Source: a virus
Lineage: Duplodnaviria > Caudoviricetes
Direction: 5' to 3' (one strand)
IMG/VR virus record: IMGVR_UViG_3300033550_000005
Coordinates: 1-59,758 of that record
DNA length: 59,758 bases
Positions 180-52,644 of the stretch are shown here, piece by piece. Position numbers and translations under genes: made by a program. The first letter of the stretch is position 1, and the number at the start of each line of letters is the position of its first letter. Under the pieces are notes generated by a model, which did not search any database, was not told the origin of the DNA, and saw only the letters and a list, made by a program, of their open reading frames with translations.

Positions 180-245
180 AGAGCCTGGCGCTTCGTACCA
201 AGTCCTTCTGACGGTGGGCGAGGGTCGTGGCGCTAGGTTCTTCCA
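180..245 (+). ncRNA. Putative tRNA-like minihelix RNA ending in UCCA
   Basis: AGAGCCTGGCGC (180-191) pairs with GCGCTAGGTTCT (230-241), with G-U wobbles favouring the + strand. Followed by T-CCA-AC, the same junction seen after tRNA-Ser. Confidence 0.5.
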
Positions 246-247
246 AC

Positions 248-324
248 GCGGACGTAGCTCAACTGGACAGAGCACGTGACTTCTAATCTCGATGTTGTGA
301 GTTCGAGTCTCACCGTTCGTTCCA
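248..324 (+). tRNA. tRNA-Arg (anticodon UCU)
   Basis: Cloverleaf: acceptor GCGGACG/CGTTCGT, D arm GCTC..GAGC, anticodon loop CTTCTAA, T loop TTCGAGT, encoded CCA. Confidence 0.93.
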
Positions 325-328
325 ACAA

Positions 329-418
329 GGAGGCGTGGCAGAGTGGTTGATTGCAACAGTCTTGAAAACTGTCGACGCTTCGCGGCGCCCGTGAGTTCGA
401 ATCTCACCGCCTCCTCCA
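329..418 (+). tRNA. tRNA-Ser (anticodon UGA)
   Basis: Acceptor GGAGGCG/CGCCTCC, anticodon loop CTTGAAA, long variable arm, TTCGAAT T loop, CCA. Confidence 0.95.
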
Positions 419-420
419 AC

Positions 421-496
421 GCTGGCATAGCTCAGTTGGTAGAGCAGTTGCCTTGTAAGCATCAGGTCGTGGGTTCGATCCCTGCTGCCAGCACCA
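421..496 (+). tRNA. tRNA-Thr (anticodon UGU)
   Basis: Acceptor GCTGGCA/TGCCAGC, D loop AGTTGGTA, anticodon loop CTTGTAA, TTCGATC T loop, ACCA end. Confidence 0.95.
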
Positions 497-518
497 TCAC
501 CTAACACGGAGACACACC

Positions 519-902
519 ATGAGCTGTTCAGTCGAGTCAGAGATCCAAGCGCTTGGCCGCAACGCGCCTCGCATCACGCCGATGGACATCGAGAAGAACA
601 TCGTACAAGAGTGGTACTTCACGGCTGAGGAAGGCGTAGCGGGTTCCGCTGGCGGACCTGCCCAGCTCTCGGCACTGATCCGCGATGGTCACGTTGGTGA
701 ACCATCTTCACACCTCAGCCGCGTCACCTTCTGTGTGCTGGTCCTCACCAACGGGTTCGTAGTGACTGGATCTTCGGCCGCTGTCTCGCTCGAAGGCTTT
801 GACAAGGACATCGGCAGACAGGTAGCACGTAACAACGCGATCGATCAGGTCTGGCCGCTCATGGGCTACGCGCTACGAGAACAGCTCCACAACCAAGACT
901 AA
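519..902 (+). CDS. Phage Gp49/66-family protein (possible nucleotide-signal sponge, Acb4-like)
   Basis: Motifs APRITPMDIE, TFCVLVLTNGFVVTGSSA, FDKDIGRQVARNNAIDQVWPLMGY recognised as typical of the family; GGAG RBS. Confidence 0.75.
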   Translation: MSCSVESEIQALGRNAPRITPMDIEKNIVQEWYFTAEEGVAGSAGGPAQLSALIRDGHVGEPSSHLSRVTFCVLVLTNGFVVTGSSAAVSLEGFDKDIGRQVARNNAIDQVWPLMGYALREQLHNQD

Positions 903-903
903 C

Positions 904-1368
904 ATGACACGCAAGACGCCCACCAAGGAACAGACAGCCAAGAAGTCCTCATCCGACTTCAGGCCAGCACTCACCCAGGCCGCTGAGGTCGAAGAGGCTG
1001 CGCTCTCTGTTACCAAGGACGTCTACGACGAGACCTTCCTCCAGTTCGTTGAGTCACAAGCAGGCCTTGGTCTCGACCCGCTGTCTGATGAAGCCGTCCA
1101 ACTTCAGGCTCAGTACGCGGTGCTTGGCACTCACCCGTTCGATGTGCTCAAGCGGATCGTGGCAAACCCGTTCTGCTCGCCACGTGACAGGATCTCGGCC
1201 TCCAAGCTCTTGCTTGAGTACTCGGCACGCAAGGTACCTGCTCAGCTTGAGGTCACAGGTAAGAATGGATCTCCACTCAAGCTCGACGCCTCTCAGCTCT
1301 CACGGCTGAGCGACAAGGACCTTGATACCTTGGAGCGTCTGCTACAGAAGGCACAGGTCGCAGAGTGA
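904..1368 (+). CDS. Putative terminase small subunit
   Basis: Directly upstream of and overlapping TerL; C-terminal EVTGKNGSPL...LSDKDL motif common in TerS. Confidence 0.6.
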   Translation: MTRKTPTKEQTAKKSSSDFRPALTQAAEVEEAALSVTKDVYDETFLQFVESQAGLGLDPLSDEAVQLQAQYAVLGTHPFDVLKRIVANPFCSPRDRISASKLLLEYSARKVPAQLEVTGKNGSPLKLDASQLSRLSDKDLDTLERLLQKAQVAE

Positions 1369-2939
1369 ACGCGCCCGTCTCACCCACCTTCCTGCTCGAT
1401 GCGATCAAGAGCGAGCGCGAGAAGCGGAGAGCTGAGGAATCCTTCGCTGAGTTCGCCAAGCAAGCATGGCACATCCTCGAACCTGCTACTGAGCTGAAGT
1501 GGGGATGGGGACTCGACGCTATCTGTGAACACCTTGAGGCTGTGCACGATGGTGAGATCACACGGCTCCTCATGAACGTGCCGCCAGGCTCGATGAAGTC
1601 TCTGCTCACCAACGTCCTCTTCCCAGCATGGGAGTGGGGACCGGCGAACGCACCACACCTCCGCTTCCTTGCCACTGCGCACAAGGAACCACTCGCTGTG
1701 CGCGACAACCTCAAGTGCCGTCGCCTCATCCAGTCTGACTGGTACCAAGATCGATGGCCTGTGAAGTTGGTCGGAGATCAGAACGCGAAGTCTAAGTTCG
1801 AGAACGACAAGACGGGGTTCCGCGAGGCAATGCCATTCAAGTCGATGACAGGATCTCGCGGTGATCGCGTCACGCTCGATGACCCGCTCTCAGTGGACGG
1901 AGCGCGAAGTGATGCGGACATCGAGGCTTGTGCCAACACGTTCCGCGAAGCGCTGCCCACTCGCGTGAACAACGACAAGTCAGCCATCATCGTGATCATG
2001 CAGCGGCTCCACGAGCGTGACACGTCGGGCATCATCCTCGCTGAGAAGCTGCCATACGTCCACCTCTGTCTGCCCATGCGCTTCGAGCCTGAGCGTCGTT
2101 GCATGACGTCGATCGGGTTCGTGGACCCACGCAAGAAGGCGGGTGAGCTCTTCTTCCCTGAGCGGTTCCCTGAGGAGTCAGTGGCCGAGCTCGAGAAGAT
2201 CCTTGGTAAGTACGCGACAGCTGGTCAGCTGCAGCAACGTCCTGATCCAGCTGAAGGCGGGATCTTGGACCCTGAGCTCTTCTCGCTGTGGCCTGCGAAG
2301 CGAGGTCTTCCCACCTTCGACTACGTGGTGCAGAGCTATGACACCGCGTTTGAGCCGAAGGAGCAGGCAGATCCATCCGCGTTCATGGCATGGGGTGTGT
2401 TCACCCATAAGGGGAAGCGTGGTGCCATGCTCTTGGATGTTTGGGCCGAGCACTTGGCTTACCCGGATCTACGCAAGAAGGTCTTGAAGGAGTGGCACAC
2501 ACGCTATGGCGTCGAGGACAACCGCACAGGTCGCAAGACAGACGTGGTGCTGGTTGAGAAGAAGGCATCAGGCCAGTCACTGCTGCAGGATCTCAAGGCT
2601 GGTAACGTGCCGACAGCTCAGTTCCCATTCAAGGGGATGGGTAACATCAGCAAGTCAGCACGCGCCCACCTTACCGCTCCGATCTTAGAGCTTGGCTGCT
2701 TGTACCTGCTTGAGTCCAGCAAGGAAGAAGGTGAGCCAGTCTTCTGGGCTCGCGACTTCCTTCGTCAGCTCCGCATGTTCCCGAACGGTGAGCACGACGA
2801 CATGGTTGACACATTTACGCAGGCCATGATATATTTACGCGACAACAACTGGTTCGAGCTGGACGCGGCAGACATAGACGAGGTCGAAGACCACGACTAC
2901 ACCGCGGACAAGAAGAAACAGAACCCATACCTGAGGTGA
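1365..2939 (+). CDS. terL: Terminase large subunit
   Basis: ATPase motifs NVPPGSMKS, TGSRGD..LDDP, IMQRLHERD; nuclease acidic motifs QSYDTAF, VEKKASG, FPNGEHDDMVD. Confidence 0.93.
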   Translation: MNAPVSPTFLLDAIKSEREKRRAEESFAEFAKQAWHILEPATELKWGWGLDAICEHLEAVHDGEITRLLMNVPPGSMKSLLTNVLFPAWEWGPANAPHLRFLATAHKEPLAVRDNLKCRRLIQSDWYQDRWPVKLVGDQNAKSKFENDKTGFREAMPFKSMTGSRGDRVTLDDPLSVDGARSDADIEACANTFREALPTRVNNDKSAIIVIMQRLHERDTSGIILAEKLPYVHLCLPMRFEPERRCMTSIGFVDPRKKAGELFFPERFPEESVAELEKILGKYATAGQLQQRPDPAEGGILDPELFSLWPAKRGLPTFDYVVQSYDTAFEPKEQADPSAFMAWGVFTHKGKRGAMLLDVWAEHLAYPDLRKKVLKEWHTRYGVEDNRTGRKTDVVLVEKKASGQSLLQDLKAGNVPTAQFPFKGMGNISKSARAHLTAPILELGCLYLLESSKEEGEPVFWARDFLRQLRMFPNGEHDDMVDTFTQAMIYLRDNNWFELDAADIDEVEDHDYTADKKKQNPYLR

Positions 2940-2943
2940 CAGC

Positions 2944-3627
2944 ATGGGAGCACTTGACCAACTCATCAGACGTATCCAACCCTCTAAGCTCTCACGTGCT
3001 CAGAAGGATGACTGGCGCTCGCTCACCAAGAAGGTGTACGTGCCTGAGATGCGAAGAGCTGAGGACCGCATGGCTCAGTTCCTTCGTGCGGCTGAGACTG
3101 CACCTGATGAGGGGACACGTGAGGCTCTGCTCCGTGCTGCTGACCGCGAGAAGTACAAGTCAGCCCGCTTCGCCATGATGGACTCCGCCGCTGCTACGAT
3201 CAGCTCGGCCATACCACGTGTGGACGACGGGCTTGAGACCATGTTCCTCACCGGTGGCGAAAAGGAGCTGCCGGTCGGCATCGCCAACTTCTACAAGCCG
3301 GGTCGCTACATGGCTGATGACCCAGAGCTGAACTCAGCGGGCTACCTCGAACAGCTGGCAGCAACGGGCGAAGTGCCTGGCACTGGGCGCTCACTCCTCT
3401 ACTCGATGGGCCAGGACATGCAGGAGGATCCCATCATGTGGTTGTCGCTCCCATATGCGGACACGATGGACTTCTACAAGTCGCGTGGTGCTGAGCTCTA
3501 CTCGCCGAAGGCAGGCTCACAGCTGACCGACCGCAACTACCCGGTGTTCCGCGTTGAGCGTGGTGACCTGATCAAGAAGAAGCGCGGAGGTCTAGTGCAG
3601 TACTGCGACAGGTGCAACCATGGCTGA
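2944..3627 (+). CDS. Putative GNAT-fold acetyltransferase-like protein
   Basis: YLEQLAA..VPGTGRSLL (motif A-like) and TMDFYKSRG (motif B-like); C-terminal KRGGLV motif. Confidence 0.45.
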   Translation: MGALDQLIRRIQPSKLSRAQKDDWRSLTKKVYVPEMRRAEDRMAQFLRAAETAPDEGTREALLRAADREKYKSARFAMMDSAAATISSAIPRVDDGLETMFLTGGEKELPVGIANFYKPGRYMADDPELNSAGYLEQLAATGEVPGTGRSLLYSMGQDMQEDPIMWLSLPYADTMDFYKSRGAELYSPKAGSQLTDRNYPVFRVERGDLIKKKRGGLVQYCDRCNHG

Positions 3628-47067: not shown

Positions 47068-48594
47068 TCAACCTCCAAGACCCTGTTCGTGCTGGGCGAT
47101 GTAGTCCAGCACCGACTCACTGAAGCCGTCGATGTGGAGCCACTTTCTGTATCCGATGCCATTGCGGTGCGTCGCCACGTTCACCATGTAGTTGTGTGCG
47201 CCCAACATCTTGGCGTGTTCCGGCTTCAGCTTCGTGTCGCAGTCCTGCTCGTCGGTGAACACGATGACGCGATCAAACGGCTCCTTCTCTTTGCTGGCGA
47301 TGTATTCCATGCACTGCGTCAAGAAGATCCCGCCACCGCCTATCTTGCTACGCACCTCTTGGCCCGAGATGTAGTCAGACAGCGCGAAGCCACGGCGCGG
47401 TGGGATGAGCATGGTCGAGTGTACACGCGTACCATCATTGCCGGCGGTACAGTAGATGGTCGGGTCTTCACAGAGCTCACGGGCGAGGATGGCCAGAGCG
47501 GCTGCGGCCTTGAGACGAGTGAGCTCGGACTTCTCGCTGAGCGCTGCGCCCATGGAACCTGAGGTGTCGAACACAAAGAGCGAACGACCTGGCAGCTTCT
47601 TGACGCCTTCGAGACACTTGAGCATCCAACGTTCGAGCCAGGGCTCCAACTGCGGCACAACTTGGGCAGCGGCGATGAAGCGGAACGGGAGCACACGGCC
47701 CCACTTGCGCGTGTCACCATAGGCCACGATGTCATCCATCGAGACGCCGGCGTTGACCATGTTGCGGAGGTTACGCAGGAAGGCGAGGTCGCCTAGCTTC
47801 CCCTCGGCCATGAGGCGCTTGAACGTCTCAGCCTTGTCCTTACCCGCTGAGAGCTCGGTCTCCCAGGTGTCGGGTGTCTTCAGTTGGTCATAGACCAGCT
47901 TGCCGTAGAGTAGCTCGCCGTTAGAAAAACCTTCCGGACGATGATCAGCTACGTGCTTATCAGCGTATCCGCGTCCCATCTCACGCTCAATGCGAGCATA
48001 GTGTTCACGAGTTTGGCGATCCCACGGCATGGCGTCTTTTGTGACGTCCTTCGGCTTTGAGTGGCAGAGGAACAGCACGTCGCGCAGCTTGACGTCCTTA
48101 TCGCGGTTGTAGCGCGCCAGCTGGAACTCGTCAAACTTGCTGAAGGCCTTCGCGAGGCCCAGCTTCACCTGCTTAGAGAGTGGCTGCTTGCCGTCCTTCC
48201 AGTAGATCGCGAGGAACTCGGACAGCTCGTCTGCACGTTGGATGACGTGGGCGAGCGTCTGGCTGATGTAGCCAGTGTAGTTACGGGACTTATCGTCCTC
48301 GCAACGATTTGGGTGGCGTGCCATCTCACGCACGATCAGCAGCGGCACGTGGCGCAGCTTCATGTTGTCGCGGGCCTCGATCGCGACCTGGGCAGCCTCC
48401 TGCAGTGTCACCGTGTGAACCAGCGCCTTGATACGGTCTGCTGCCGACACACCGCTCTCATAGAAGTTGTCCTCCCACAACATACAGGCCATGGTGAGGC
48501 GGATGAGCTCCTGCAGCGGTGTGATCTTAACTGCCTGCGCACCGCCACCGGTGAAGATCGGTTCGGACTTGGTTGCCTTGTTCGTCGAGGCCAT
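47068..48594 (-). CDS. Ro60/Rsr-like TROVE-domain RNA-binding protein with C-terminal vWA domain
   Basis: LWEDNFYESG, QRADEL, FDEFQLARY, TWETELS, LRNLRN, VLPFRFIAA; MIDAS DTSGSM and VIVFTDEQ. Confidence 0.9.
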   Translation of the reverse strand: MASTNKATKSEPIFTGGGAQAVKITPLQELIRLTMACMLWEDNFYESGVSAADRIKALVHTVTLQEAAQVAIEARDNMKLRHVPLLIVREMARHPNRCEDDKSRNYTGYISQTLAHVIQRADELSEFLAIYWKDGKQPLSKQVKLGLAKAFSKFDEFQLARYNRDKDVKLRDVLFLCHSKPKDVTKDAMPWDRQTREHYARIEREMGRGYADKHVADHRPEGFSNGELLYGKLVYDQLKTPDTWETELSAGKDKAETFKRLMAEGKLGDLAFLRNLRNMVNAGVSMDDIVAYGDTRKWGRVLPFRFIAAAQVVPQLEPWLERWMLKCLEGVKKLPGRSLFVFDTSGSMGAALSEKSELTRLKAAAALAILARELCEDPTIYCTAGNDGTRVHSTMLIPPRRGFALSDYISGQEVRSKIGGGGIFLTQCMEYIASKEKEPFDRVIVFTDEQDCDTKLKPEHAKMLGAHNYMVNVATHRNGIGYRKWLHIDGFSESVLDYIAQHEQGLGG

Positions 48595-48671: not shown

Positions 48672-50153
48672 TCAGTGGCGGACGACTGCCTCGTGCACCT
48701 GCTTAGCGTGCTTGGAGACCGGCGAGCCTTCGACTGCGCGCTGCATGATGTCGTGCAGCGAGTCCTCGATCGAGCGTGGCTTCTCGGCAGCTTCACGGTA
48801 CAGCAGATCCAGCTGCGACTGCATGGTCTTAGCAGCCTCGGCCAACGCCATGCTCGAGATCTTGGTGACAGGTACACCGGCCGGCTGCAGCGACAGCTGC
48901 GACAGCTTGGCACGCTTGACGACCTCGGCGATCACGGCTGGGATGCGACCGTTCAGCAGCTCGCCCACTTGGGTGAGATCCTCGTCGGCGTCGATCGCGG
49001 TACCGCCATACAGGCGCAACAGCTTGCCAACAGCAACGGCGTCGGGCGGCAGCACGTCGATGACGGCGTCCAGACGACCCGGGCGCAACATGGCCGGGTT
49101 GATGCCTTCCAGGTTGTTGGTCGTGAGGATGACCATGATGTTGGAGGACTTGGTGTCGATGCCATCGATGATGTTGAGGATGTCATCCATCTTCTCGGTG
49201 CGCTCACCGTTCATCTCGCGGTCGATGTCTTCACAGAAGATCACGCAGCCGGGGTTGTTGTACTGCTTGGCAAACGCGATCGCCTCGGCCAGCTCATCAG
49301 CACGGGTCACGTAGAGGTACGTGATGCCCTGAGTCACGGCCTTCTTAGCAGCGACCTTGGCGCAGAGGGTCTTGCCGGTGCCGAAGGTGCCGCCCAGCAG
49401 CACGCCGCGCTTGAACGGGATGCCGTTGGCCGCGCAGTCCTTGACACGCTCGATCGGCGTGAAGAGGTTGGTGCGGACAGCAGCCATCACGTCGTCGGAG
49501 TAGATGAGGTGGTTTTCATCGACATCGGCCACGTTGAGGAACTTGGGCTCAGGCATTTCCAGCTTGTCGCCGGCATCATTGTAGAAGCGGATCTTGAAGG
49601 CCTTGCCACGATAGATGCTGTTGGAGGCGATATAGGCGCGCAGGTCTTGGAACAGGCCTTCAATCGTCGGTTCATCACGACGCTTGACGCTGGCAACCAG
49701 CTCGAAGCAGATGCGGCCGTCGATGGTGTCGGCAGTGCATTGGATGAAGCCGGTGATGCCCGGGATGGACATGCGGCCCCATGGCACCTTACGCTTCTGG
49801 TCGTGGTCGATGTCGACCGTGAGGATCTGCGGAGGCGTAGGACCGAAGAAGCCCGGGGTGGCTTCAGCAGCGACCCAGCCGTAGCGGTTGGTGAGCACGG
49901 TGTCGAGTGCCACGGCGCCGTCCCACGGGAAGACGTCGAACTTCTCGCGCACGACCGTGTCCTCGTCGAGGAAGGCCTTGCGACGGATCAGGGTCTCGAT
50001 GGCCGCGTCGACAGACATGTCAACTGGCAGCGTGATGGCGTTGCCTTGGTTGACGATCTGCACGGCGTGGACGGCCGTCTGCATGTTATGCGCCAGCGTT
50101 TGGTTGTTGGCGGTGTTGGGGATTGCTGGGGTTGTGGGCTTGTTGACAGACAT
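48672..50153 (-). CDS. Classical-clade AAA+ ATPase
   Basis: Walker A GTFGTGKT, Walker B IFCEDID, second region of homology TTNN..INPAMLRPGRLD. Confidence 0.9.
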   Translation of the reverse strand: MSVNKPTTPAIPNTANNQTLAHNMQTAVHAVQIVNQGNAITLPVDMSVDAAIETLIRRKAFLDEDTVVREKFDVFPWDGAVALDTVLTNRYGWVAAEATPGFFGPTPPQILTVDIDHDQKRKVPWGRMSIPGITGFIQCTADTIDGRICFELVASVKRRDEPTIEGLFQDLRAYIASNSIYRGKAFKIRFYNDAGDKLEMPEPKFLNVADVDENHLIYSDDVMAAVRTNLFTPIERVKDCAANGIPFKRGVLLGGTFGTGKTLCAKVAAKKAVTQGITYLYVTRADELAEAIAFAKQYNNPGCVIFCEDIDREMNGERTEKMDDILNIIDGIDTKSSNIMVILTTNNLEGINPAMLRPGRLDAVIDVLPPDAVAVGKLLRLYGGTAIDADEDLTQVGELLNGRIPAVIAEVVKRAKLSQLSLQPAGVPVTKISSMALAEAAKTMQSQLDLLYREAAEKPRSIEDSLHDIMQRAVEGSPVSKHAKQVHEAVVRH

Positions 50154-50186
50154 TGTTTGCTCTCCTTGAGCGTGGTGGGAAACTGG

Positions 50187-50957
50187 TTAGTGAAGCGTGG
50201 AGGGTTGTGGCTCTTCGATGCCGAGCGCGCTTAGGGCGTTCTCAACACGCACTGCGGCAAAGACTTCCTTTGGCAGACCTGTGGCCTTCTCAAGCTGTTC
50301 GAGCAGCTCGGGGCTGAGGTCATCGGCCTCGATGCGACCGTTGGCCGTGATGCGCTGGAGCTCAGCGGCGAGCTCTGGCGACATGTTGCGGGTGTCGAAC
50401 GCGATGCAGTTGTCACCGATCGGGATCCCGACACCGGCCGCTGGAGTTGCCTTGCCGGCGAGGGCCTCGATAAGCTTGTGAAGGCCACTAGGCGCGGGTG
50501 CCTTACCGCTGAGAACTGCCTCGACAAAGGCTTCGTCGGCATACTTCTCGTTGAAGGTGCCGTAGTGCTTGGTGAACTTGGTGAGGTTCTGCTTGACCAC
50601 GCCGTAGTCGGTGGCAACGAGCGGGCCCAGGTCGTCGCCCATGAGCCACACCAGTGCCTCACAGTTGCACATGGCGCCGTACATCGACTGCGGGTGAAAC
50701 TTCCAGTAATGTGCCCAGACGCGGGGTGAGAACATCTTGATCTCACCCATGAGGCTGTCGTGGTCGCGCGGCTTGTTAACGTCGTTCTCAGCAAGTTCCT
50801 TCGTCTGCACGAGGTCGGCCGGAACACGGTGCCAAGGCAGGCGTGCGGCGAGCACCAAGGCAGCGACGCGCCCGTAGTCTTGGTTGGTAGCACGCAGGTA
50901 ATCGATGCGTGCAATGATCTCCTCGTCAGTGCGAGGTGTGAATGCTTGTTGCTCCAT
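50187..50957 (-). CDS. Hypothetical protein
   Basis: AAGGAG RBS; lies between the RNA array and the AAA+ gene. Confidence 0.65.
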   Translation of the reverse strand: MEQQAFTPRTDEEIIARIDYLRATNQDYGRVAALVLAARLPWHRVPADLVQTKELAENDVNKPRDHDSLMGEIKMFSPRVWAHYWKFHPQSMYGAMCNCEALVWLMGDDLGPLVATDYGVVKQNLTKFTKHYGTFNEKYADEAFVEAVLSGKAPAPSGLHKLIEALAGKATPAAGVGIPIGDNCIAFDTRNMSPELAAELQRITANGRIEADDLSPELLEQLEKATGLPKEVFAAVRVENALSALGIEEPQPSTLH

Positions 50958-50988
50958 ATTACTCTCTCCTTAACAAGTACATCAAAAA

Positions 50989-51128
50989 TTGCGGGGAACA
51001 TGTCGCTAGACGTTCAATGCTCGCGCTCTACCAACTGAGCTACGTCACCGGGATCCCCCAGCAACGGTTGGGCTCTAACCAACGACCTCAAGCTCCGGAA
51101 GAAGTATGCCTAACTGCCGCCACCGCAA
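50989..51128 (-). ncRNA. YrlA-like Y RNA 1 (circularly permuted tRNA mimic)
   Basis: Terminal stem GCGGTGGCG..TGTTCCCCGC with TACTTC; then T arm GTTGG-TTAGAGC-CCAAC, loop-closed acceptor-like stem, D arm GCTC-AGTTGGTA-GAGC. Confidence 0.8.
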
Positions 51129-51130
51129 AA

Positions 51131-51232
51131 CTCTCACAAGGGAGACCCGACGCGCATCGCGGTCGGAGCAACCGGGAGGAGGAACCGTGACACCCAGAAA
51201 GGGGAACTGGTGTCGGGTCTCTCTTGTGAGAG
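51131..51232. ncRNA. Structured hairpin RNA A (folds best on + strand)
   Basis: 21-bp inverted repeat CTCTCACAAGGGAGACCCGAC/GTCGGGTCTCTCTTGTGAGAG with internal stems. Confidence 0.5.
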
Positions 51233-51256
51233 CTCACTACAACTTCAAAATAAGGC

Positions 51257-51393
51257 GTGCACCGGGAACAGATCGGGCCAGCGACAAGGTGCTCTAACCA
51301 GCTGAGCTACCCGAGCCGAAACTCGAGGCTGGATTCGAACCAGCGACCACCCTCTTAGCAGGAGAAGTATCTGAACCTATCGCCACGGCGCAC
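51257..51393 (-). ncRNA. YrlA-like Y RNA 2 (circularly permuted tRNA mimic)
   Basis: Terminal stem GTGCGCCGTGGCG..TGTTCCCGGTGCAC with TACTTC; canonical T arm GCTGG-TTCGAAT-CCAGC, loop-closed acceptor CTCGAG/CTCGGG, D arm GCTC-AGCTGGTTA-GAGC. Confidence 0.85.
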
Positions 51394-51490
51394 TGTTTGA
51401 GACTTAGCAGCGGGACTCTTGCGTCGCTTGACACAGTCCGGAACTGTCGCGACCCCGACCTCACCCGCTTCACACCCTAAGTCTCAAACA
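51394..51490. ncRNA. Structured hairpin RNA B
   Basis: Perfect 14-bp TGTTTGAGACTTAG/CTAAGTCTCAAACA plus nested AGCGGG/CCCGCT, GTCGC/GCGAC, ACAGT/ACTGT. Confidence 0.5.
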
Positions 51491-51510
51491 CTACGTCGTA
51501 CCGCACTACC

Positions 51511-51577
51511 TAGCGGGGAACAAAACGCAACGGGGAGATTTCACCAAAAGAAGTACCCGTTACAAACGCCACCGCTA
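51511..51577 (-). ncRNA. Minimal Y RNA 3 (conserved stem only, no tRNA module)
   Basis: TAGCGGTGGCG-TTTGTAACGGG-TACTTC..CCCGTTGCG-TTTTGTTCCCCGCTA; same motifs as Y1 and Y2. Confidence 0.7.
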
Positions 51578-51596
51578 AACTCCAAAGAACGCTCTA

Positions 51597-51678
51597 GGTG
51601 CGGCCCCTGTCGAGAACCTGTCAGCTGCGACGAAGCCCACGACACCCCACCCGACTGAGCCCCGCAGGGACCGCAGCC
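51597..51678 (-). ncRNA. Structured hairpin RNA C
   Basis: TGCGGTCCCTG/CAGGGGCCGCA and GTCGG/CTGAC stems with G-U pairs on the - strand. Confidence 0.4.
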
Positions 51679-51698
51679 GAAGCGCTCTCAACATGGTT

Positions 51699-52253
51699 CT
51701 ATTCTGCCACACCCAAAGACTGCTGCATACCAGCACTCTCCAGCAGATCACCCTCCGGCTGGGCTCGTACAGCGTCCACAAACCAGACAGGAACAGGCCT
51801 GTGGGTCCAGCGCGCCTTGGGCCCTCGTGTCCGCACATAGAACTCACGCCACGCGGTCACACACTCCTCTGTCCCCTTCGTGCTGCCCATACCGTCTGGG
51901 AACACCCACACGAGAGGATCTCGCTTAATGTACTGAGATGCGATCCGCAGCTCACTTGGTAGGTGCAACAGGTCGCTCAGCACTGAGCTCTCGGCCCCGA
52001 AGCGGCGGCGAGTCTCTGCAGCTACCTCAAGCGCCAGCTTGTACAGCCACATCCAGTTGATCGGGTGCGTCGCCCACTGCACCTCAGCGCTCTTGATAAC
52101 CCATGATGATGTGCTCCCACCAGTTCCGCGGTTGTTGAGCCGCGCCGCCGTGGCAAGGATCTCAGCCAGCTGCGGACCACACCGTAGGATGTCGCTGTCA
52201 CAGTGGGCGTGTGCGCACTCAACCGGCCGGCTGTCAAGCACGAGGACCTTCAC
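51699..52253 (-). CDS. Diverged pyrimidine-dimer DNA glycosylase (DenV-like) family protein
   Basis: VLVLDSRPVECAHAHCD, NWMWLYKLA..RRFG, VTAWREFY, ARWTHRPVPVWF; GTG start with AAGGAG RBS. Confidence 0.6.
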   Translation of the reverse strand: MKVLVLDSRPVECAHAHCDSDILRCGPQLAEILATAARLNNRGTGGSTSSWVIKSAEVQWATHPINWMWLYKLALEVAAETRRRFGAESSVLSDLLHLPSELRIASQYIKRDPLVWVFPDGMGSTKGTEECVTAWREFYVRTRGPKARWTHRPVPVWFVDAVRAQPEGDLLESAGMQQSLGVAE

Positions 52254-52465
52254 GACTTCTCCTTCAGCAGCCAGGTCGCCAAGAGGTGACCCGCCCAGAA
52301 CTGAACCCCAAGCGCTGAGACCAGCAGGACCCAGGTCGCGAACGACGGGAAGCGGAGCGCCACCACAGCCGCAAACAGGTATGGGATCGTACACATGATG
52401 ATCACGTGCAACAGGCCGTTGCCTAGCTTCTTAAGTTTTTCCTTCAACATGCTCAGATCCTCCAA
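52250..52465 (-). CDS. Small two-TM protein
   Basis: Hydrophobic segments. Confidence 0.5.
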   Translation of the reverse strand: MEDLSMLKEKLKKLGNGLLHVIIMCTIPYLFAAVVALRFPSFATWVLLVSALGVQFWAGHLLATWLLKEKS

Positions 52466-52644
52466 CCTTGTGCGGCCGCGTAGCCGCGAGCCCTTCGCTC
52501 TTGCTCAAGGGTCACCTTCTCATACCGACACCTAAAGAGCACGGCCGCCACGGCCTTCGCTCCGTTGACCGCCGTCCCGTCGGGGTTCACGGCCTGGGCA
52601 TAGTCCTCTAGCGTCGCCTCTTCTAGCTTATCTTCAGTCGACAT
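52453..52644 (-). CDS. Hypothetical protein
   Basis: Start MSTEDK overlapping the upstream stop. Confidence 0.45.
   Translation of the reverse strand: MSTEDKLEEATLEDYAQAVNPDGTAVNGAKAVAAVLFRCRYEKVTLEQERRARGYAAAQGWRI

What the first reader, a model, noticed from the sequence alone, without database searches (positions are those of the whole stretch)
51257..51393. Y RNA 2: clean circularly permuted tRNA mimic
On the - strand the T arm (GCTGG-TTCGAAT-CCAGC) comes BEFORE the D arm (GCTC-AGCTGGTTA-GAGC). The acceptor-equivalent stem is closed by a loop, and the anticodon-equivalent stem opens into a long terminal stem carrying TGGCG / TACTTC / TGTTCCC. This is the YrlA architecture, not a decayed tRNA. 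It cannot be aminoacylated at a normal 3' end but would present a tRNA elbow.
Basis: partly seen in the sequence, partly recalled or inferred. Interest (0 to 1): 0.75.

Follow-up and report, generated by a model that had tools for sequence, protein, structure and literature searches.

The report
Phage Y RNA that mimics tRNA
A soil phage carries, upstream of its Ro60 gene, a small RNA gene shaped like a circularly permuted tRNA on a Ro60-binding stem; it is a new example of the already described YrlA class of Y RNAs.

Summary
On the minus strand at 51257-51393 a T arm comes first. A 7-bp hairpin with a TTCG loop follows in the acceptor position, then TA and a D arm, and a long stem closes the whole. 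ARAGORN and the Rfam tRNA model call no tRNA there. Rfam YrlA (RF02553) matches over its full length at 43.8 bits, E 5.5e-8, which is below its gathering score of 69. A TROVE/Ro60 gene lies 2.66 kb downstream on the same strand. A covariance model built only from Ro-adjacent RNAs of other phages finds this RNA at 92.9 bits, full length. Across 46 distinct homologues, 97.7% of cells pair and 22 of 24 pairs show double changes. It is the middle of three tandem Y RNAs: Y1 is short, and Y2 and Y3 are tRNA-like. The same module recurs upstream of Ro60 in 52 of 53 phage sources searched, in 15 of 16 bacterial or MAG loci, and in cultured Xanthomonas and Caulobacter phages. This architecture, phages included, was published in 2014, so this is a new member of a known kind. 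No expression data were obtained. Ro60 binding and function are inferred by homology.

The parts
51257..51393 (-). Y RNA 2, a YrlA-type Y RNA (covariance-model hit 51256-51394)
   Evidence: Rfam YrlA 43.8 bits, E 5.5e-8, model 1-114. R1 114.6 bits. Leave-window-out model R2 92.9 bits, E 6e-21.
51386..51393 (-). 5' strand of the closing stem; pairs with 51257-51264
   Evidence: Read and predicted in the MFE. The four modelled pairs nearest the conserved loop are 100% paired with double changes in all of them across 46 sequences (helix 1).
51257..51264 (-). 3' strand of the closing stem
51378..51385 (-). 5' half of the conserved internal loop (TGG CGATA): two G-C pairs plus a loop. Presumed Ro60 contact; a near match to the published GNCGAAN0-1G motif
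   Evidence: GTGG[CT]G is conserved in the alignments. The motif comes from Chen 2014. The exact motif is not met here.
51265..51274 (-). 3' half of the conserved internal loop (GATCTGTT CC)
   Evidence: TGTTCCC is invariant in the 12-sequence seed. TGTTCC is found in 67 of 147 model hits.
51371..51377 (-). Helix 2, 5' strand (GGTTCAG); pairs with 51275-51281 (CTGGCCC) with one T-C mismatch
   Evidence: Helix 2: 7 of 7 pairs with double changes, 93.5% of cells paired.
51275..51281 (-). Helix 2, 3' strand
51364..51369 (-). TACTTC motif in the junction after helix 2
   Evidence: The exact motif occurs in 102 of 147 model hits, both long and short forms.
51352..51364 (-). Small hairpin CTC-[CTGCTAA]-GAG with a 7-nt loop, extendable to 5 bp. 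Corresponds to the published 'V' stem-loop upstream of the T arm
   Evidence: 25 of 40 homologues have a hairpin with a 7-nt loop of form N-T-N-N-N-R-A, against 1.2 +/- 1.1 in shuffles. Chen 2014 describes a V stem-loop.
51345..51351 (-). GG (anticodon-stem equivalent; pairs with CC at 51288-51289, extendable to AGGG/CCTT) followed by the variable loop TGGTC
   Evidence: The trans pairing run averages 2.89 nt against 1.23 +/- 0.14 with permuted partners, 0 of 2000.
51328..51344 (-). T arm
   Evidence: helix 3, 99.1% paired
51310..51327 (-). Closed acceptor-stem equivalent, 7 bp with a TTCG loop
   Evidence: A hairpin occupies this position in 46 of 47 homologues, with unrelated sequences.
51291..51309 (-). 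TA dinucleotide plus the D arm
   Evidence: helix 5, 99.5% paired
51508..51580 (-). Y RNA 1: short Y RNA with the same Ro module and TACTTC but no tRNA-like domain (YrlB-like)
   Evidence: R1 51.2 bits; R2 44.8 bits
50986..51131 (-). Y RNA 3: second YrlA-type Y RNA, with a 5-bp anticodon-stem equivalent
   Evidence: Rfam YrlA partial hit 23.9 bits; R1 109.6 bits; R2 88.0 bits; trans stem of 5 bp
47068..48594 (-). Ro60 (TROVE) gene, 508 aa
   Evidence: Pfam TROVE E 7.3e-15. PHROG 850 RNA-binding protein E 9.7e-35. Thermus phage phiLo Ro60 structures 9L5Y/9KOP E 7.6e-14.

Best explanation
Window 51257-51393 (minus strand) encodes a YrlA-class Y RNA of a phage. Its 5' and 3' ends pair into a long stem. 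That stem carries a conserved asymmetric internal loop (TGGCGATA opposite GATCTGTTCC), which by homology is the docking site for the phage's own Ro60 protein. The distal part folds like a tRNA read in permuted order: small V hairpin, variable loop, T arm, acceptor stem closed by a loop, TA, D arm, and a short anticodon-stem equivalent. The RNA would therefore tether the Ro60 ring to whatever recognises a tRNA elbow, or to host PNPase, redirecting RNA decay or repair during infection. Shown here: the sequence anatomy, the covarying helices, the family membership by two independent models, and the linkage to Ro60. Inferred: transcription (probably as a Y1-Y2-Y3 precursor), Ro60 binding, the tRNA-like fold, and the partner.
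For: (1) Anatomy read directly. The T-then-D pattern occurs once in the window and in 0 of 100 shuffles. (2) No tRNA is called here. (3) Rfam YrlA hits at 43.8 bits, E 5.5e-8, over the whole model. In the whole 59.8-kb phage record only this RNA and Y3 match at E <= 0.001. (4) A Ro60/TROVE ORF lies 2662 nt downstream on the same strand. (5) Model R1 finds 147 matches in 53 sources. Every match in the 52 related loci is on the Ro60 strand, and 47 are full-length YrlA-type, spread over 37 of 53 sources. (6) On 46 distinct full-length sequences, 97.7% of cells pair and 22 of 24 pairs show double changes. No shuffle of 500 reaches these values, and slid controls give 38-46%. (7) Model R2, built without the window's sequences, scores Y2 at 92.9 bits, E 6e-21, positions 1-139 of 139. 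(8) The insert between the T and D arms is a hairpin in 46 of 47 homologues although its sequence differs. (9) The nucleotides that make tRNA tertiary contacts are all present: T8-A14, G15-C48, G18/G19 with T55/C56, T54-A58 and G53-C61 equivalents. This comes from reading against textbook tRNA numbering. (10) Published precedents: YrlA RNAs lie near Ro60 in 254 bacteria and 22 phages; the crystal structure of the S. Typhimurium YrlA domain is tRNA-like; and phage phiLo Ro60 binds its own Y-like RNAs and host PNPase in vitro.
Against: There is no evidence of transcription. The RNA-library contigs laid on the region cover only tRNA-like pieces or belong to a relative. The Rfam score is below the gathering threshold (43.8 against 69). 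The same model also gives E <= 0.001 hits in 6 of 14 control genomes, none over the cut-off, so that score alone would not suffice. The published Ro motif GNCGAAN0-1G is missed by one base (GGCGATAG); only 14 of 147 family members match it exactly. Folding energy is unremarkable (z = -1.0). No promoter-like site was found upstream of the array. Two ORFs absent from the 52 other Ro loci separate the Y RNAs from Ro60. Alignments A4 and A5 were fitted to the model, which inflates pair counts somewhat.
Confidence: 0.87

Rival explanations
1. The RNA is a Ro60-bound Y RNA but is not left intact. RNase P cuts the 7-bp acceptor hairpin and the CCA-adding enzyme tails the upstream piece. The result is a two-piece tRNA-like RNP that could engage, or act as a decoy for, tRNA-handling enzymes or tRNA-targeting host defences.
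For: The acceptor-equivalent stem of Y2 is 7 bp. Chen 2014 reports that M. smegmatis YrlA, the one with a 7-bp stem, is cleaved by RNase P and gains CCA in vivo. The V hairpin has an anticodon-loop-like 7-nt loop, and 25 of 40 relatives share the N-T-N-N-N-R-A form. In CcrColossus the same portion of a Y RNA was annotated as tRNA-Gln by the depositors.
Against: Chen 2014 saw no such cleavage for S. Typhimurium YrlA or D. radiodurans Yrn1. No processing data exist for this phage. Acceptor hairpin lengths vary across relatives, so 7 bp may not be under selection. ARAGORN does not accept the CcrColossus 'tRNA-Gln'.
Confidence: 0.12
2. It is a decayed remnant of two adjacent tRNA genes, the T arm of one and the D arm of the next, with no function of its own.
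For: Real tandem tRNAs give partial hits to the same models. The window's tRNA-Ser/tRNA-Thr junction scores 33.5 bits with R1 and 34.4 bits with R2. The field's hypothesis is that YrlA arose from dimeric tRNAs.
Against: The junction hit covers only the T-to-D core of the model, whereas Y2 matches end to end, including the Ro module. The sequence between the T and D arms is a perfect 7-bp hairpin abutting both arms, not two unrelated acceptor strands. The outer helices covary across 46 sequences. The element recurs next to Ro60 on the same strand in 52 of 53 phage sources searched.
Confidence: 0.02
3. It is a tRNA-derived phage attachment site, or a piece of a permuted (two-piece) tmRNA.
For: Phage attP sites often contain tRNA 3' halves. 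A related phage locus, L006, does carry a permuted tmRNA about 0.7 kb upstream of its Y RNA array.
Against: ARAGORN, which also looks for tmRNA, finds none here. No Rfam tmRNA family hits the window at its gathering score or 50500-52300 at E <= 10. An attP explanation does not account for three tandem copies sharing a covarying non-tRNA stem.
Confidence: 0.01

Closest known systems
YrlA of Salmonella Typhimurium (Rfam RF02553; crystal structure of the tRNA-like domain, Wang et al. 2018 preprint 10.1101/312249)
   Same: T arm, closed acceptor-equivalent hairpin, TA, D arm in that order. The conserved D/T loop nucleotides are present. The anticodon-equivalent stem leads to a Ro60-binding stem formed by the two ends. 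The gene lies near rsr on the same strand.
   Different: The score is below Rfam's gathering threshold (43.8 against 69). Rfam aligns only the tRNA-like core correctly. The Ro module here (TGGCGATA / GATCTGTTCC plus a second covarying helix and TACTTC) differs from the Rfam consensus. The acceptor hairpin is 7 bp rather than the 6 bp reported for Salmonella. Here it is encoded by a phage, 2.66 kb from Ro60.
YrlA/YrlB of Mycobacterium smegmatis (Chen et al. 2014, PMC4201824)
   Same: A 7-bp acceptor-equivalent stem. [quoted passage not shown] The published probe sequences (Methods), compared by eye, imply a V hairpin with a 7-nt loop followed by TGGTC in YrlA, and an ACTTC next to the GGCGA motif in YrlB, as here.
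   Different: It is bacterial, not phage. [quoted passage not shown]
Phage YrlA RNAs (22 bacteriophages in Chen 2014; mycobacteriophages, Caulobacter phage CcrColossus, Bacillus phage G as named in PMC12135203)
   Same: The setting is the same. Model R1 finds 8 matches upstream of the CcrColossus TROVE gene and 4 upstream of the Xanthomonas phage MET23-P3 TROVE gene, with the same GTGG[CT]G / TACTTC-like / TGTTCCC module.
   Different: The window's phage is an uncultured soil virus whose Ro60 is at most 59% identical to any relative found. I could not see the paper's supplementary tables, so I cannot say which individual phage RNAs were already listed.
Yrl1/Yrl2 of Thermus phage phiLo (PMC12135203)
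   Same: Phage-encoded Y-like RNAs just upstream of a phage Ro60. Binding to phage Ro60 and to host PNPase was shown in vitro.
   Different: From the passages read, those RNAs are described as stem-bulge-stem hairpins with a CGAA motif; no tRNA-like domain is mentioned (the term 'tRNA-like' occurs 0 times).
Yrn1 of Deinococcus radiodurans and metazoan Y RNAs
   Same: The ends pair into a bulged helix that binds Ro60, and a distal module recruits an effector (PNPase for Yrn1).
   Different: Metazoan Y RNAs lack a tRNA-like domain. Yrn1 has its T and D arms in a different orientation and is regarded as a separate lineage.

Membership tests
YrlA (Y RNA-like A; Rfam RF02553) | Encoded within about 4 kb of a Ro60/TROVE gene on the same strand (criterion of Chen 2014) | tested here: met
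   The 3' end of Y2 (51257) lies 2662 nt upstream of the start of the TROVE ORF (48594), both on the minus strand.
YrlA (Y RNA-like A; Rfam RF02553) | T-arm-like stem-loop, then a closed acceptor-equivalent hairpin, then TA and a D-arm-like stem-loop | tested here: met
   for the sequence; for the Rfam alignment; for covariation and for a hairpin in 46 of 47 relatives.
YrlA (Y RNA-like A; Rfam RF02553) | Conserved D-loop, T-loop, TA linker and last variable-loop pyrimidine, which make the tRNA tertiary contacts (Wang 2018) | tested here: met
   All are present in the sequence read: A14, G15, G18, G19, A21, T54, T55, C56, A58 and C48 equivalents, and TA at 51309-51308. The fold itself was not tested.
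YrlA (Y RNA-like A; Rfam RF02553) | GNCGAAN0-1G motif near the 5' end (presumed Rsr contact) | tested here: inconclusive
   Y2 has GGCGATAG, one base off. The exact motif occurs in only 14 of 147 family hits, and a relaxed form GNYGWWN0-1G in 110 of 147.
YrlA (Y RNA-like A; Rfam RF02553) | Score at or above Rfam's gathering threshold (69 bits) | tested here: not met
   43.8 bits, E 5.5e-8. The closest relatives are also below the threshold: 51.4, 42.1, 40.8, 38.1 and 34.5 bits.
YrlA (Y RNA-like A; Rfam RF02553) | Stable RNA bound by Ro60/Rsr in vivo; substrate of TruB and DusA | not testable with these tools
   No informative RNA reads. Needs Northern blotting, RIP and modification mapping.
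Y RNA in the broad sense | 5' and 3' ends pair into a helix with a conserved bulge or internal loop | tested here: met
   Helices 1 and 2: 13 of 13 pairs with double changes, 100% and 93.5% of cells paired. A conserved loop lies between them.
tRNA | Cloverleaf in canonical order with open acceptor ends | tested here: not met
   ARAGORN finds none here. The Rfam tRNA model has no hit, either at its gathering score or up to E = 10 in 50500-52300.
tmRNA (standard or permuted) | tRNA-like domain plus tag reading frame | tested here: not met
   ARAGORN and Rfam give no tmRNA hit in the window.

The most novel reading that the evidence does not exclude
Y2 would not be merely a passive tether. [quoted passage not shown] Its V hairpin would add an anticodon-loop-like CTGCTAA loop. 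The phage would use this RNP as a decoy or adaptor against host enzymes that cut or modify tRNAs, for example tRNA-targeting defence nucleases. The long hairpins between Y1, Y2 and Y3 would be the processing signals that release the three RNAs from one precursor.
Probability: 0.1. Interest if true: 0.7.

Novelty: new member of a known kind. Interest (0 to 1): 0.3.

Why it matters
The finding adds a well-supported Y RNA trio and a Ro60 gene to an uncultured soil phage. It also shows that the curated Rfam YrlA model misses this whole phage-centred branch at its gathering score. That branch contains dozens of loci with arrays of 2 to 17 Y-like RNAs, so routine annotation leaves them blank or, as in CcrColossus, labels a piece as a tRNA. 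The shared module (GTGG[CT]G, a covarying helix, TACTTC, TGTTCCC) gives a practical signature for finding phage Y RNAs. The cultured Xanthomonas and Caulobacter phages that share it offer a way to ask what phage Ro60-Y RNA particles do during infection, which is still unknown. The architecture itself is not new.

Tried and rejected
1. Single-sequence folding as evidence was uninformative. Y2 z = -1.0 and Y1 z = -0.94; a Y3 fragment cut too short gave z = +0.5.

2. DNA similarity search of the 0.9-kb region against GenBank phages found no match.

3. The promoter/terminator scan of 50800-52500 found nothing upstream of the array. One promoter-like site lies inside the next ORF's start region and one weak terminator-like site lies at 51802-51787; both counts are within what the region's shuffles give.

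4. Expression was not shown. The run search found the stretch only in soil DNA metagenomes, three of which may be the source. RNA libraries held 0.04 of the sampled words. Laying X4, X5, X7 and X21 showed cover only on the tRNA-like D and T pieces, from other organisms' tRNAs. Two RNA-library contigs (X7, X21) match 51327-51387 with 2 differences and then diverge; these come from a relative's Y RNA, not from this phage. This is no evidence for or against transcription.

5. Conserved partner genes: the AAA ATPase (48672-50153, PHROG 10440) and the 256-aa ORF between the Y RNAs and Ro60 have no tblastn match in any of the 52 related Ro loci, so I did not treat them as part of the system.

6. First alignment A1 included two RNAs (L021:5564-5702, L013:5190-5313) that lack a D arm, and a truncated Y3. 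I dropped the two and corrected Y3 for seed A2.

7. Cis versus trans pairing of the GAGGG segment is unresolved. Nearest-neighbour energies are -44.7 kcal/mol for the cis 5-bp hairpin and -42.6 for the trans 4-bp stem, which does not decide. Comparative data support both a 2-3 bp trans stem and a 3-5 bp hairpin.

8. Literature search for the TACTTC/UACUUC motif: with 'Y RNA' it returned 617 irrelevant papers. With 'Ro60' it returned 0 papers. The motif occurs 0 times in the main text of Chen 2014. Figures and supplements were not visible.

Full report
**What is in the sequence.** All coordinates here are on the minus strand, read.
- The T arm GCTGG-TTCGAAT-CCAGC (51344-51328) is followed without a gap by a hairpin of 7 bp with a TTCG loop (51327-51310).
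- Next come TA (51309-51308) and the D arm GCTC-AGCTGGTTA-GAGC (51307-51291).
- Upstream of the T arm lie a five-base variable loop TGGTC and a GAGGG segment. Downstream of the D arm lie one A and then CCTT.
- The two ends (51393-51386 and 51264-51257) pair into an 8-bp stem.
- Moving inward there is a bulged T, two G-C pairs, an asymmetric internal loop (CGATA opposite GATCTGTT) and a second 7-bp helix (GGTTCAG/CTGGCCC, one mismatch).

The limits of the finding are exactly the outer base pair. The T-then-D pattern occurs once in the window and in none of 100 shuffles. Folding energy alone is unremarkable (z = -1.0).

- ARAGORN finds only three ordinary tRNAs, at 248-496.
- Rfam at gathering scores finds only those three.
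- A permissive Rfam scan of 50500-52300 gives no tRNA hit up to E = 10. It does give YrlA (RF02553) at 51265-51374, 43.8 bits, E 5.5e-8, model positions 1-114 of 114. A second, partial YrlA hit lies at 51025-51087.
- Across the whole record, these are the only two places at E <= 0.001.
- The score is below Rfam's cut-off of 69. The same model also rings at E <= 0.001 in 6 of 14 control genomes, so I looked for independent evidence.

**Context.**
- The window is a complete 59,758-bp virus record. Its terminase is closest to those of Paracoccus, Rhizobium and Roseobacter phages. Its DNA is found in soil metagenomes.
- The minus-strand order is: a 231-aa ORF, Y1 (51580-51508), Y2, Y3 (51131-50986), a 256-aa ORF, an AAA ATPase (PHROG 10440) and a 508-aa TROVE/Ro60 protein.
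- The Ro60 protein matches phage TROVE proteins over 99% of its length and the solved Ro60 of Thermus phage phiLo.
- Y2 lies 2662 nt upstream of Ro60 on the same strand. That is within the published 4-kb, same-strand criterion.

**Relatives.**
- The Ro60 protein retrieved 52 loci from viral contigs. I built a 12-sequence seed (A2) after dropping two RNAs without a D arm and correcting a truncated Y3 from the first alignment.
- RNAalifold predicted 22 pairs on this seed, 15 of them with compensatory changes.
- Model R1 found 147 matches in the window plus 52 loci. Every match in the loci is on the Ro60 strand.
- Seven matches are local hits to the T-to-D core only, among them the window's own tRNA-Ser/tRNA-Thr junction.
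- Forty-seven matches are full-length YrlA-type RNAs, spread over 37 of 53 sources. Most of the rest are ~70-nt RNAs with the same closing module but no tRNA-like domain. One locus (L041) had no match.
- On the 46 distinct full-length sequences, 97.7% of cells pair and 22 of 24 pairs show changes on both sides. No shuffle of 500 reaches these values, and sliding the partners gives 38-46%. The caveat is that this alignment was fitted to the model.
- As a leave-out test I rebuilt the model from the 45 non-window sequences. It finds Y2 at 92.9 bits (E 6e-21, full length), Y3 at 88.0 and Y1 at 44.8. The tRNA junction is matched only over the core, at 34.4 bits.
- The family also occurs in cultured phages: 4 matches upstream of Ro60 in Xanthomonas phage MET23-P3 and 8 in Caulobacter phage CcrColossus. 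It occurs in 15 of 16 bacterial or MAG loci encoding a related Ro60.

**Finer anatomy.**
- The insert between the T and D arms folds into a hairpin in 46 of 47 sequences although its sequence is not conserved.
- The bases just before the variable loop pair with the bases just after the nucleotide that follows the D arm. The mean run is 2.89 against 1.23 +/- 0.14 with permuted partners (0 of 2000). The run is 4 in Y2 and 5 in Y3. This is the anticodon-stem equivalent, and it is short in Y2's subtype.
- In 25 of 40 sequences with a long 5' linker there is also a small hairpin with a 7-nt loop of the form N-T-N-N-N-R-A, against 1.2 +/- 1.1 in shuffles. In Y2 it is CTC[CTGCTAA]GAG, extendable to 5 bp.
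- This hairpin corresponds to the 'V' stem-loop that Chen et al. describe upstream of the T arm.
- The cis 5-bp form and the trans 4-bp form compete for GAGGG, and energies do not decide between them (-44.7 against -42.6 kcal/mol).
- TACTTC sits between helix 2 and this hairpin. The exact motif is found in 102 of 147 family members, including the short RNAs, so it is more than a stem strand. Its role is unknown. I found no mention of it in print, but figures and supplements were not visible.

**How it most likely works.** By homology, the closing stem with its conserved loop binds the phage Ro60. The tRNA-like domain offers an elbow to a tRNA-binding factor, or links Ro60 to host PNPase.
- Ro60-Y RNA-PNPase complexes are reported for D. 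radiodurans and S. Typhimurium.
- In vitro, phiLo Ro60 forms such complexes with its own Y-like RNAs and host PNPase.
- Co-transcription of Y1-Y3 is inferred from the tandem arrangement and from the precursors described for M. smegmatis and D. radiodurans.

None of these steps is shown for this phage.

[quoted passage not shown] So are YrlA-like RNAs in 22 phages. Y2 meets the structural and positional criteria. It misses the exact GNCGAAN0-1G motif by one base and falls below Rfam's threshold, as do its closest relatives. I therefore file it as a new member of a known kind, on a branch that the curated model under-detects. The boldest reading left open is RNase P/CCA processing of the 7-bp acceptor hairpin, as in M. 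smegmatis, with a decoy role toward tRNA-directed enzymes. I give that about 10%.

Noticed in passing
window 51395-51507 and 51132-51255 (minus strand): The two spacers between Y1, Y2 and Y3 each fold into a long hairpin of about 100 nt, with 13-19 bp basal stems. Z-scores are -2.4 (4 of 200 shuffles fold as well) and -4.6 (0 of 200). They could be processing signals (RNase III type) or further structured RNAs. No Rfam family matches them.
   Followed up: partly
L056 (Caulobacter phage CcrColossus JX100810.1) locus 2166-2336; annotated tRNA-Gln at 2173-2240: The GenBank 'tRNA-Gln' lies inside a Y RNA model hit (86.9 bits). It consists of the Ro-module 5' strand, the V hairpin read as an anticodon arm, and the T arm. 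ARAGORN calls no tRNA there. It is probably a misannotated Y RNA.
   Followed up: partly
L057 (10-kb contig of an Acidobacteriota MAG), locus 232-3510: Seventeen model hits lie in a row upstream of a Ro60 gene, the largest Y-like RNA array seen here. L054 has 9 hits and L008 and L056 have 8 each.
   Followed up: no
L006 4353-4739: A related phage carries a permuted tmRNA (Rfam tmRNA_permuted 130 bits, beta_tmRNA 94 bits) a few hundred bases upstream of its array of Y RNAs and Ro60.
   Followed up: no
window 48672-50957 (minus strand): An AAA ATPase (493 aa, PHROG 10440, E 5e-205, function unknown) and a 256-aa ORF without any family hit are inserted between the Y RNAs and Ro60. Neither occurs within 6 kb of Ro60 in the 52 related loci.
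   Followed up: partly
window 248-496 (plus strand): A cluster of three phage tRNA genes: Arg-TCT, Ser-TGA and Thr-TGT. The Ser/Thr junction gives a partial false-positive hit to Y RNA models, a useful negative control.
   Followed up: yes
window 51327-51387; RNA-library contigs in runs X7 and X21: Two metatranscriptome contigs from different wastewater studies match the 5' half of Y2 (Ro motif through T arm) with 2 differences in about 60 nt. They then diverge into a different acceptor-type hairpin. A close relative's Y RNA is therefore present in RNA libraries, though DNA carry-over cannot be excluded.
   Followed up: partly
short Y RNAs, e.g. window 51508-51580, L003 5485-5560, L005 5434-5510: The ~70-nt Y RNAs share a conserved apical loop beyond TACTTC/GTTCWTC, of the form TTTGG-NGA-NAAATC. 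This suggests a second recognition element of unknown partner.
   Followed up: no
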